From Escherichia coli (GTDB taxonomy: Bacteria; Pseudomonadota; Gammaproteobacteria; Enterobacterales; Enterobacteriaceae): a stretch of DNA of 64,000 bases. The position numbers were made by a program, and so were the translations under genes. Location: assembly GCF_041248615.1 (NCBI RefSeq), contig NZ_CP158426.1; one strand, given 5' to 3'. Positions 27,496 through 27,700 of this stretch are shown piece after piece; position 1 is the stretch's first letter, and every line of letters begins with the position of its first letter. The notes under the pieces were generated by a model. That model saw only the letters and a list, made by a program, of their open reading frames with translations, made no database searches and had not been told where the DNA came from.

Positions 27496-27669
27496 ACCAG
27501 CATCCCCTCCAGCAAGAAAATGACCCGTTTTTTTAAGAAAGGATCTTAAAACTGCCTTTTCAGGCGAAACGAAGCCTTATCAGATCCTTTCTCAGAACAA
27601 ATAAAATTCAATATACACAATGACTTACAAGAAAGAAGAACGGATCTGAATTTCCCGTAAAAATTTCAT

Positions 27670-27700
27670 AAGGAGTTGTTTTGCGCGAGGTCGACGCCCC
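27670..27700 (-). other. cos site (cosN-like cohesive end sequence)
   Basis: Minus-strand GGGGCGTCGACCTCGCG closely resembles the lambda cosN region as recalled, about 190 bp upstream of nu1. Confidence 0.5.

What the first reader, a model, noticed from the sequence alone, without database searches (positions are those of the whole stretch)
27660..27700. cos site retained inside the prophage
A lambda-cosN-like sequence lies upstream of nu1 at the late-operon junction, consistent with a cos-packaging phage integrated in the usual permuted order.
Basis: partly seen in the sequence, partly recalled or inferred. Interest (0 to 1): 0.22.

Follow-up and report, generated by a model that had tools for sequence, protein, structure and literature searches.

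The report
Lambda-type cos site of prophage
This is an ordinary lambda-family DNA-packaging (cos) site sitting where expected in an E. coli prophage; it is built like phage 21 on one side and Salmonella phage Gifsy-1 on the other, and its sticky end differs from lambda's by one rare base.

Summary
Confirmed. Read on the minus strand, window 27705-27684 is GTTACGGGGCGTCGACCTCGCG. This matches the lambda/phage 21 cosN core at 21 of 22 bases (0 of 100 shuffles gave a match). It lies directly upstream of a Nu1-family small terminase gene and a gpA-family large terminase gene. The window is E. coli NRZ14408.

The full site spans about 27536-27729:
- cosQ GGGTCCT, 30 bp upstream of the nick, as in lambda.
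- The 12-base cohesive end GGGCGTCGACCT (27699-27688).
- The I2 segment, with its critical bases 30-35 (TATGAA) intact.
- A tripartite cosB: R3, an IHF-like site I1, inverted R2, then R1, with R3-R2 spacing as in lambda and 21.

Three refinements:
1. The cosQ side (95%) and TerL (96%) are phage 21-like.
2. The R boxes (CAGATCCKTTCT) are neither lambda's nor 21's. They are the Gifsy-1 type, and the TerS recognition helix differs to match.
3. Cohesive-end base 6 is T instead of G. This is a rare natural allele in the left half of the sticky end: in IMG/VR, G occurs in at least 120 loci, T in 7, A in 5 and C in 0.

The prophage is probably defective, because its J gene is split by IS1414. This is a new member of a known kind and of low interest.

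The parts
27723..27729 (-). cosQ heptamer GGGTCCT (packaging-termination signal). It starts 30 bp upstream of cohesive-end base 1, as in lambda.
   Evidence: Invariant block GGGTCCTTTCCGG shared with lambda and 21. The only exact match in the window, with 0.03 expected. Annotated as cosQ at the aligned position in phage 21 OL657228.
27684..27705 (-). cosN core (22 bp) GTTACG|GGGCGTCGACCT|CGCG. The CG dinucleotides flanking both predicted nicks are conserved.
   Evidence: 21/22 to lambda/21 with 0/100 shuffles matching. The phage 21 genome end aligns to 27700.
27688..27699 (-). Predicted 12-base 5' cohesive end GGGCGTCGACCT. It differs from lambda/21/phi80 (GGGCGGCGACCT) at base 6 (G to T), which creates a SalI site (GTCGAC).
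   Evidence: The same T is present in independent E. coli genomes (strain 135, GF60, LR-31) and in 7 IMG/VR loci.
27650..27682 (-). I2 segment (phage bp 18-50), an AT-rich bent spacer between cosN and cosB. Critical bp 30-35 TATGAA are identical to lambda. bp 17-29 are remodelled (CAAAACAACTCC versus GGTTTTCGCTAT). One A is missing from the A-run, so R3 sits 1 bp closer to cosN.
   Evidence: Alignment (gap at column 75). IHF-consensus match at bp 30-42 with 1 mismatch. Mutational data for lambda I2 in PMC4856287.
27637..27648 (-). R3, the cosN-proximal TerS binding box CAGATCCGTTCT (phage bp 52-63).
   Evidence: One of only three matches to AGATCCKTTCT in the window, with 0.03 expected. 12/12 positions invariant among five cos sites of this class.
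27615..27627 (+). I1, an IHF-like site between R3 and R2 (ACACAATGACTTA, phage bp 73-85).
   Evidence: Two mismatches to WATCAANNNNTTR. Lambda I1 also has 2 mismatches and lies 1 bp further from cosN (bp 74-86), which mirrors the window's 1-bp shift. 21 has 1 mismatch and L038 has 0. Assigned by position; binding not shown.
27581..27592 (+). R2, a TerS binding box in inverted orientation (CAGATCCTTTCT on the window + strand; phage bp 108-119).
   Evidence: 10/12 invariant in the class. R3-to-R2 offset is 56 bp, identical to lambda and 21 (sequences).
27536..27547 (-). R1, the third TerS binding box AAGATCCTTTCT (phage bp 153-164).
   Evidence: 10/12 invariant in the class. Same position as R1 of phage 21.
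26947..27495 (-). terS (Nu1 family, 182 aa, GTG start). The N-terminal winged helix-turn-helix has recognition helix RTISTWQN.
   Evidence: PF07471, E = 7e-83. 80% identical to phage 21 gp1 overall, but 65% in residues 1-55 against 86% in the rest. Matches the solved lambda TerS DNA-binding domain 1J9I/6HN7.
25047..26975 (-). terL (gpA family, 642 aa), the enzyme that would nick cosN and drive translocation.
   Evidence: PF05876 and PF20454. 96% identical over its full length to phage 21 gp2.

Best explanation
This is the cohesive-end (cos) packaging site of a lambda-family prophage of E. coli, and by sequence every element known to be critical in lambda is intact. Inferred mechanism, by homology with lambda and 21: when late genes are expressed, dimers of the small terminase subunit dock their winged helix-turn-helix domains on the R boxes of cosB. 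IHF bends I1 so that R3 and the inverted R2 face each other. This anchors the phage 21-like large subunit on cosN. The large subunit then cuts the two strands 12 bp apart (27700|27699 on the window minus strand, 27688|27687 on the plus strand), giving 5' overhangs GGGCGTCGACCT. DNA is packaged in the direction terS to tail genes, that is toward lower window coordinates. cosQ together with cosN of the next cos on the concatemer ends the packaging. The site is a mosaic. The cosQ side and TerL are phage 21-like. The R boxes and the TerS DNA-binding domain belong to the Gifsy-1 class. Its recognition specificity is therefore probably neither lambda's nor 21's. Shown here: the sequence anatomy, its conservation, and the homologies. 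Inferred: binding, cleavage positions, specificity, and present-day activity.
For: - cosN core is 21/22 identical to lambda/21, and 0/100 shuffles gave a match.
- The phage 21 virion DNA end aligns to window 27700.
- cosQ is identical and at the same 30-bp offset.
- There are exactly three AGATCCKTTCT boxes in the 64 kb window. All lie in the 112 bp between cosN and terS, in orientation -,+,- as for R3/R2/R1 (0.03 expected).
- R3-R2 spacing is 56 bp, as in lambda and 21.
- Among five divergent cos sites of this class (window, Gifsy-1, SerU-LTIIb, IMG/VR L038, L041), the boxes are invariant at 12/12, 10/12 and 10/12 positions. The spacers are invariant at only 0/5, 1/22 and 8/33.
- An IHF-like site lies at the I1 position.
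- I2 bases 30-35, the only lethal block in lambda scanning mutagenesis, are unchanged. The strongly diverged bp 17-29 fall in a block that could be replaced in lambda without major effect on yield (PMC4856287).
- TerS residues 20, 21 and 24 co-vary with box type: QN/E or D in lambda and phi80, ER/S in 21, and T/S + A/G/T + S/N in the Gifsy-1 class including the window.
- terS and terL are full length. TerL is 96% identical to 21 gp2.
- The same cos, including the T at base 6, occurs in at least 14 of 5426 complete E. coli genomes and in a metagenome contig.
Against: - No experimental evidence exists for cleavage or packaging.
[quoted passage not shown] Feiss et al. describe this half as under selection and sensitive to mutation (PMC4669245). 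I found no direct data on a G6T change.
- R3 is 1 bp closer to cosN than in lambda, 21, Gifsy-1 and L038. The literature says only that changes of more than 1-2 bp are harmful.
- The window's recognition helix differs from Gifsy-1's at 4 of 8 residues.
- The prophage carries three IS insertions, one splitting the tail-tip gene J, so the site may never be used to make infectious virions.
- The prophage ends (att sites) were not identified.
Confidence: 0.85

Rival explanations
1. The site is a decayed relic. It looks like cos, but the G6T change, the 1-bp shorter cosN-R3 distance and the remodelled I2 have inactivated it in a prophage that is already decaying.
For: The prophage has IS1414 in J and IS1B plus a second IS1414 in the early region. 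Base 6 is in the mutation-sensitive left half of cosN (PMC4669245). The cosN-R3 spacing is -1.
Against: All experimentally critical elements are intact. The identical cos, including T6 and the -1 spacing, is kept in different prophage backgrounds: strain 135 has a different early region and insertion site, and GF60 and LR-31 differ just upstream of cosN. T6 also occurs with three other cosB types, four in all, which argues that it is a tolerated allele. terS and terL have no frameshifts.
Confidence: 0.1
2. The cos belongs to a phage-inducible chromosomal island or other satellite that borrows a helper terminase, not to the phage itself.
For: Lambda-type cosQ/cosN cores with foreign cosB regions are typical of E. 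coli PICIs (PMC6739421, PMC9026076). Some island-like IMG/VR loci (L041, L054, L063) carry the same R-box class without a Nu1 gene downstream.
Against: Here cos is followed directly by a cognate terS, terL, portal, protease, decoration, capsid and a full tail module. It is preceded by the lysis cassette of the same prophage. There is no rpp-like gene and no second inverted cos in the window.
Confidence: 0.02
3. The resemblance to cosN is a chance match.
For: The 12-mer with one mismatch is expected 0.25 times per window by chance.
Against: The 22-mer match (0/100 shuffles), about 250 bp of 95% identity to the phage 21 right end, cosQ, I2, the three R boxes and the adjacent terminase genes all agree.
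Confidence: 0.01

Closest known systems
Phage 21 cos (cosQ-cosN-cosB21) with terminase gp1/gp2
   Same: About 250 bp upstream of the nick is 95% identical, with the same cosQ. cosN is 21/22 identical. The architecture is the same, R3-I1-R2(inverted)-R1, with R3-R2 56 bp apart and R1 at bp 153-164. TerL is 96% identical and the TerS C-terminal two-thirds is 86% identical.
   Different: The R boxes are CAGATCCKTTCT, not CATGTCGGnCCT. The TerS recognition helix is RTISTWQN, not RTIERWQS. Cohesive-end base 6 is T. R3 is 1 bp closer to cosN. bp 17-29 are unrelated.
Salmonella phage Gifsy-1 cos
   Same: The same R-box class in all three boxes, with the same order and orientation. The TerS DNA-binding domain is of the same subclass, with small polar or aliphatic residues at positions 20/21 and S/N at 24. 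bp 23-33 (CTCCTTATG) are shared.
   Different: The Gifsy-1 cohesive end is GGGCGGCAGCGT, differing from lambda at bases 8, 9 and 11, whereas the window keeps the lambda/21 right half and changes base 6. The cosQ side is only 72% identical. The host is Salmonella.
Phage lambda cos (prototype; phi80 and 434 share its specificity)
   Same: cosQ, the CG nick flanks and I2 bp 30-35 are identical. The tripartite cosB has the same R3-R2 spacing. The right half of the R box (TCCGTTCT, bp 57-64 in lambda numbering) is identical.
   Different: R-box positions 54-56 are AGA instead of GTT; bp 56 is a known lambda/21 specificity determinant. TerS has S20 T21 N24 instead of Q20 N21 E24. Base 6 is T (PMC4669245).
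N15/Monarch cos and PICI cos sites
   Same: They share the cosQ and cosN cores. The T6 allele also occurs with Monarch-type and PICI-type cosB regions.
   Different: N15 has a single R3 (GAGGTTGTTGTT) and a different TerS N-terminus. PICI cos1 lacks phage R boxes and needs Rpp.

Membership tests
lambda-like cos site (sensu Feiss: 12-base 5' cohesive ends related to lambda's, with cosQ-cosN-cosB) | [quoted passage not shown] | tested here: met
   11/12 (GGGCGTCGACCT); 21/22 over the cosN core.
lambda-like cos site (sensu Feiss: 12-base 5' cohesive ends related to lambda's, with cosQ-cosN-cosB) | Conserved CG dinucleotides flanking both nick positions | tested here: met
   TTACG|GGGCGTCGACCT|CGCG on the minus strand.
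lambda-like cos site (sensu Feiss: 12-base 5' cohesive ends related to lambda's, with cosQ-cosN-cosB) | cosQ heptamer GGGTCCT at the lambda distance upstream of cosN | tested here: met
   27729-27723, starting 30 bp before base 1 as in lambda.
lambda-like cos site (sensu Feiss: 12-base 5' cohesive ends related to lambda's, with cosQ-cosN-cosB) | I2 spacer with critical bp 30-35 | tested here: met
   TATGAA identical to lambda (PMC4856287). The bent geometry itself was not tested.
lambda-like cos site (sensu Feiss: 12-base 5' cohesive ends related to lambda's, with cosQ-cosN-cosB) | Complex cosB: three R boxes with R2 inverted | tested here: met
   Three boxes, orientation -,+,-, 0.03 expected; conserved across the class.
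lambda-like cos site (sensu Feiss: 12-base 5' cohesive ends related to lambda's, with cosQ-cosN-cosB) | IHF site (I1) between R3 and R2 | tested here: inconclusive
   Consensus match with 2 mismatches at bp 73-85. This is as good as lambda's own I1 and at the homologous position, but the motif is weak and binding was not tested.
lambda-like cos site (sensu Feiss: 12-base 5' cohesive ends related to lambda's, with cosQ-cosN-cosB) | Adjacent Nu1-family terS and gpA-family terL | tested here: met
   PF07471, PF05876 and PF20454.
lambda-like cos site (sensu Feiss: 12-base 5' cohesive ends related to lambda's, with cosQ-cosN-cosB) | Terminase actually cuts here to give 12-base 5' overhangs | not testable with these tools
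   Needs end mapping of virion DNA after induction.
phage 21 packaging specificity | R boxes CATGTCGGnCCT and TerS recognition helix with E20 R21 S24 | tested here: not met
   The boxes are CAGATCCKTTCT and the helix has S20 T21 N24.
lambda packaging specificity (lambda, 434, phi80) | R boxes CGTTTCCnTTCT (T at bp 56) and TerS Q20 N21 E/D24 | tested here: not met
   Positions 54-56 are AGA and the helix differs. The right half of the box is identical, so partial cross-recognition cannot be excluded.
Gifsy-1-type cosB | Three CAGATCC(G/T)TTC boxes in R3-I1-R2-R1 layout | tested here: met
Gifsy-1-type cosB | TerS recognition helix of the Gifsy-1 type (RTVTAWQS) | tested here: inconclusive
   The window has RTISTWQN: 4 of 8 residues differ, all conservatively. 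Other members (L038 RTITAWQS, SerU RTITGWQS) bridge the two.
Gifsy-1-type cosB | Gifsy-1 cohesive end GGGCGGCAGCGT | tested here: not met
   The window keeps the lambda/21 right half. The cosN and cosB modules are assorted independently.

The most novel reading that the evidence does not exclude
The combination seen here may define a naturally occurring E. coli packaging specificity distinct from the three documented experimentally (lambda, 21, N15). The combination is a phage 21-type large terminase, a Gifsy-1-class cosB with a matching TerS DNA-binding domain, and a cohesive end changed at base 6. It would also show that the supposedly constrained left half of the lambda cohesive end tolerates change at base 6 in nature. 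Because some PICI-like islands carry a complete cosB of this same class (L041, L054, L063), phages of this class could be their direct helpers.
Probability: 0.35. Interest if true: 0.3.

Novelty: new member of a known kind. Interest (0 to 1): 0.15.

Why it matters
This is mostly a housekeeping result. It fixes the exact packaging origin, the predicted virion ends and the packaging direction of this prophage, which helps genome annotation and the interpretation of any transduction from this locus.

The modest added value is comparative:
- cosQ/cosN, cosB with the TerS DNA-binding domain, and TerL are exchanged as separate modules among enterobacterial lambda-like phages.
- The Gifsy-1 class of recognition boxes circulates in E. 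coli.
- Base 6 of the sticky end is a rare but recurrent polymorphism (T or A, never C in the sample), outside the bp 7-12 zone where natural variation had been noted.

A sticky-end difference and a different cosB class would both limit cross-packaging between co-resident lambdoid prophages.

Tried and rejected
1. The first three-way MAFFT alignment placed a 10-bp insertion between R2 and R1. Direct coordinate counting and the seven-sequence alignment showed the boxes are equally spaced. The extra length lies between R1 and the terS start (bp 205 against 182-191).
2. I looked for prophage att repeats between 51300-52000 and 1-5000. There was no direct repeat of 12 bp or more, so the boundaries remain undetermined.
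3. A second cosQ-like 13-mer at 16487-16499 lies inside the tape-measure gene. It has a mismatch in the heptamer and no cosN nearby, so I treated it as chance.
4. The promoter/terminator scan of 27300-29500 gave nothing above the shuffle expectation near cos.
5. PHROG and Pfam scans of the small ORFs between Rz and cos gave only families of unknown function and the TonB_C-domain protein also found in phage 21. The unannotated + strand ORF 27851-28102 matched nothing.
6. I considered whether bp 17-29 is a small inversion of the lambda T-tract. The similarity to the reverse complement is weak (about 5/7), so I make no such claim.
7. I could not find open-access mutational data for cosN base 6. 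Xu & Feiss 1991 is not in the library.

Full report
**Context.** The window is identical to E. coli NRZ14408 chromosome NZ_LT599825.1, positions 4579546-4643545.

It holds a lambdoid prophage lying next to yjjG. Reading from high to low coordinates, the gene order is:
- integrase (50145-51362)
- a CPS-53-like early region
- a Q-like antiterminator
- holin, lysozyme and Rz (29921-31826)
- a few small cargo genes, including a TonB_C-domain protein also present in phage 21
- the intergenic region under study
- a Nu1-family small terminase gene (26947-27495)
- a gpA-family large terminase gene (25047-26975)
- portal, protease, decoration, capsid and tail genes down to J and the tail fibres

All late genes are on the minus strand, so the site has to be read in reverse complement.

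**Observation.**
- On the minus strand, 27705..27684 reads GTTACGGGGCGTCGACCTCGCG.
- Against the lambda/21 core GTTACGGGGCGGCGACCTCGCG this is 21/22. It is the only hit in the window at up to 3 mismatches, and none of 100 shuffles produced any hit.
- The 12-mer alone would not be convincing, since 24 of 100 shuffles gave a one-mismatch hit.
- A BLAST search of phage records found phage 21 as the nearest isolate, at 94.8% identity over the 251 bases upstream. The linear phage 21 genome ends exactly at the base aligned to window 27700.
- This fixes the predicted nicks at 27700|27699 (phage top strand) and 27688|27687 (bottom strand).

**Anatomy.** I number from base 1 of the left cohesive end, so phage bp n is window 27700-n.

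| Element | Sequence | Phage bp | Window | Evidence |
|---|---|---|---|---|
| cosQ | GGGTCCT | -30 to -24 | 27729-27723 | same offset as lambda |
| nick flanks | CG on both sides | -2/-1 and 13/14 | 27701-27700 and 27687-27686 | conserved |
| I2 (critical part) | TATGAA | 30-35 | 27670-27665 | identical to lambda |
| R3 | CAGATCCGTTCT | 52-63 | 27648-27637 | |
| I1 (IHF-like) | ACACAATGACTTA (window + strand) | 73-85 | 27615-27627 | |
| R2 (inverted) | CAGATCCTTTCT (window + strand) | 108-119 | 27581-27592 | |
| R1 | AAGATCCTTTCT | 153-164 | 27547-27536 | |

- Scanning mutagenesis in lambda found bp 30-35 to be the only lethal block of I2 (PMC4856287).
- The strongly divergent bp 17-29 (CAAAACAACTCC for GGTTTTCGCTAT) fall in the block that could be replaced in lambda without major effect on yield.
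- The pattern AGATCCKTTCT occurs exactly three times in the 64-kb window. All three lie here, in orientation -,+,-, against 0.03 expected.
- The R3-to-R2 offset is 56 bp, as in lambda (53 to 109) and 21 (53 to 109). R1 is where 21 has it.
- The I1 match has 2 mismatches to WATCAANNNNTTR. Lambda's I1 is equally weak and lies at the homologous position, 1 bp further from cosN (bp 74-86), as expected from the shift.
- One A is missing from the A-run of I2, so the whole cosB is 1 bp closer to cosN than in lambda, 21, Gifsy-1 or L038. The literature reports defects only for shifts of more than 1-2 bp (PMC4669245; PMC9026076).

**Which class of cos.**
- The R boxes are neither lambda's (CGTTTCCnTTCT; also phi80) nor 21's (CATGTCGGnCCT).
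- A tblastn search with the first 61 residues of TerS led to Gifsy-1, SerU-LTIIb and PhiR5_1.
- The Gifsy-1 cosB has the same boxes: CAGATCCGTTCT, inverted CAGATCCTTTCT, and CAGATCCTTTCC. So do SerU-LTIIb and several IMG/VR contigs.
- I aligned five members of this class. R3, R2 and R1 are invariant at 12/12, 10/12 and 10/12 positions. The spacers are invariant at 0/5, 1/22 and 8/33 positions. This footprint supports the box assignment.
- TerS residues 20, 21 and 24 of the recognition helix co-vary with box class. Position 24 is a genetically defined contact with bp 56 (PMC4669245; PMC9026076). The pattern is QN/E(D) in lambda and phi80, ER/S in 21, and T/S-A/G/T-S/N in the Gifsy-1 class. The window has S20 T21 N24.
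- The protein matches the solved lambda TerS DNA-binding domain (1J9I, 6HN7).
- The rest of the machinery is phage 21-like. The TerS C-terminal part is 86% identical to 21, against 65% for residues 1-55. TerL is 96% identical to 21 gp2 over 642 residues.
- The site is thus a mosaic: a 21-like left arm and nuclease, with a Gifsy-1-class recognition module.
[quoted passage not shown] It counts only lambda, 21 and N15 as experimentally documented specificities (PMC9026076; PMC4669245).

**The sticky-end substitution.**
- The predicted overhang GGGCGTCGACCT differs from lambda, 21 and phi80 at base 6.
- Feiss et al. note natural variation at bases 7-12 (N15 at 9 and 12; Gifsy-1 at 8, 9 and 11). 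They argue that the left half is under selection. Base 6 is the last base of the left half and pairs with base 7 across the dyad, so the change removes one of the ten symmetric positions.
- It is not a sequencing error. The same T is in strain 135, GF60, LR-31 and a metagenome contig.
- T occurs with four different cosB types: Gifsy-1 class, Monarch/N15 class, and two PICI-like classes.
- I read this as a rare but tolerated allele that moves by recombination. Its effect on nicking by a 21-type TerL is untested.

**Function today.**
- By sequence the site and both terminase genes are competent.
- The prophage carries IS1414 inside J, plus IS1B and another IS1414 in the early region. Infectious particles are therefore unlikely from this copy.
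- In strain 135 the same late region sits in a different prophage at ompW and also has a truncated J.
- Cleavage at cos, in situ packaging toward the tail genes and adjacent DNA, or rescue by recombination with an infecting relative remain possible, as discussed in general terms in PMC4669245.
- I could not locate the att sites.

**Verdict.**
- What is there is an ordinary lambda-family cos, best described as a new member of a known kind: a phage 21 / Gifsy-1 mosaic with a rare base-6 sticky-end allele.
- Interest is low. The only open points are whether this recognition class is a fourth independent specificity in E. coli and whether base 6 is really neutral.

Noticed in passing
window 6771-11999 (J), 7459-8667 (IS1414); also about 43045-43742 (IS1B) and about 46485-47693 (IS1414): The tail-tip gene J is split by an IS1414 insertion, and two more IS elements sit in the early region. 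The prophage is probably defective even though its packaging and head genes look intact.
   Followed up: partly
IMG/VR loci L011 (9529+/10290-), L036, L039, L040, L041 (341+/1210-), L054, L063, L076, L078: About one in ten lambda-type cosN hits comes as a pair of inverted cos cores 526-869 bp apart, flanking an rpp- or terS-like gene. The two I looked at are PICI-like islands: in L041, gpE-like and gpD-like capsid proteins and SSB have Pfam support, and L011 carries near-identical gpE- and gpD-like ORFs and abuts a host gene. [quoted passage not shown]
   Followed up: partly
L041 341-545, L054, L063 (IMG/VR): In three of these island-like loci, one of the two cos sites carries a complete Gifsy-1-class R3-I1-R2-R1, the same class as the window's cosB, with no Nu1 gene behind it. 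Phages with the window's recognition class might package such islands directly. This is speculation.
   Followed up: no
window 27671-27683 (minus strand, phage bp 17-29): CAAAACAACTCC replaces the GGTTTTCGCTAT of lambda/21, which flips the A-tract to the other strand in the mutation-tolerant part of I2. It creates an extra IHF-consensus match at bp 19-31 (1 mismatch). No other sequence examined (lambda, 21, Gifsy-1, SerU-LTIIb, L038, L041) has it.
   Followed up: partly
L137 (Escherichia phage PhiR5_1, PV340545.1 25254-26336): This is another hybrid box type: R3 is CATGTCAGTTCT, with a 21-like left half and a lambda-like right half. Its TerS helix is RTIDRWQT. This suggests a graded series of cosB/TerS variants rather than a few discrete classes.
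   Followed up: no
window 16487-16499 (minus strand): TGGTCCTTTCCGG is a 12/13 match to the cosQ block, inside the tape-measure gene. There is no cosN nearby, so it is probably chance.
   Followed up: no
window 27851-28102 (+ strand): An unannotated 83-aa ORF with a signal-peptide-like N-terminus (MKIRNILAISLATSSFSCLA...) lies just upstream of cosQ on the strand opposite the late genes. It has no PHROG match, and its coding status is unknown.
   Followed up: partly
window 1-1700 and 47879-50011: Mu-like genes (gp16 family, Mor activator) lie beyond the tail-fibre end of the prophage. A CHAT-domain protein gene lies next to the integrase. Neither was examined.
   Followed up: no
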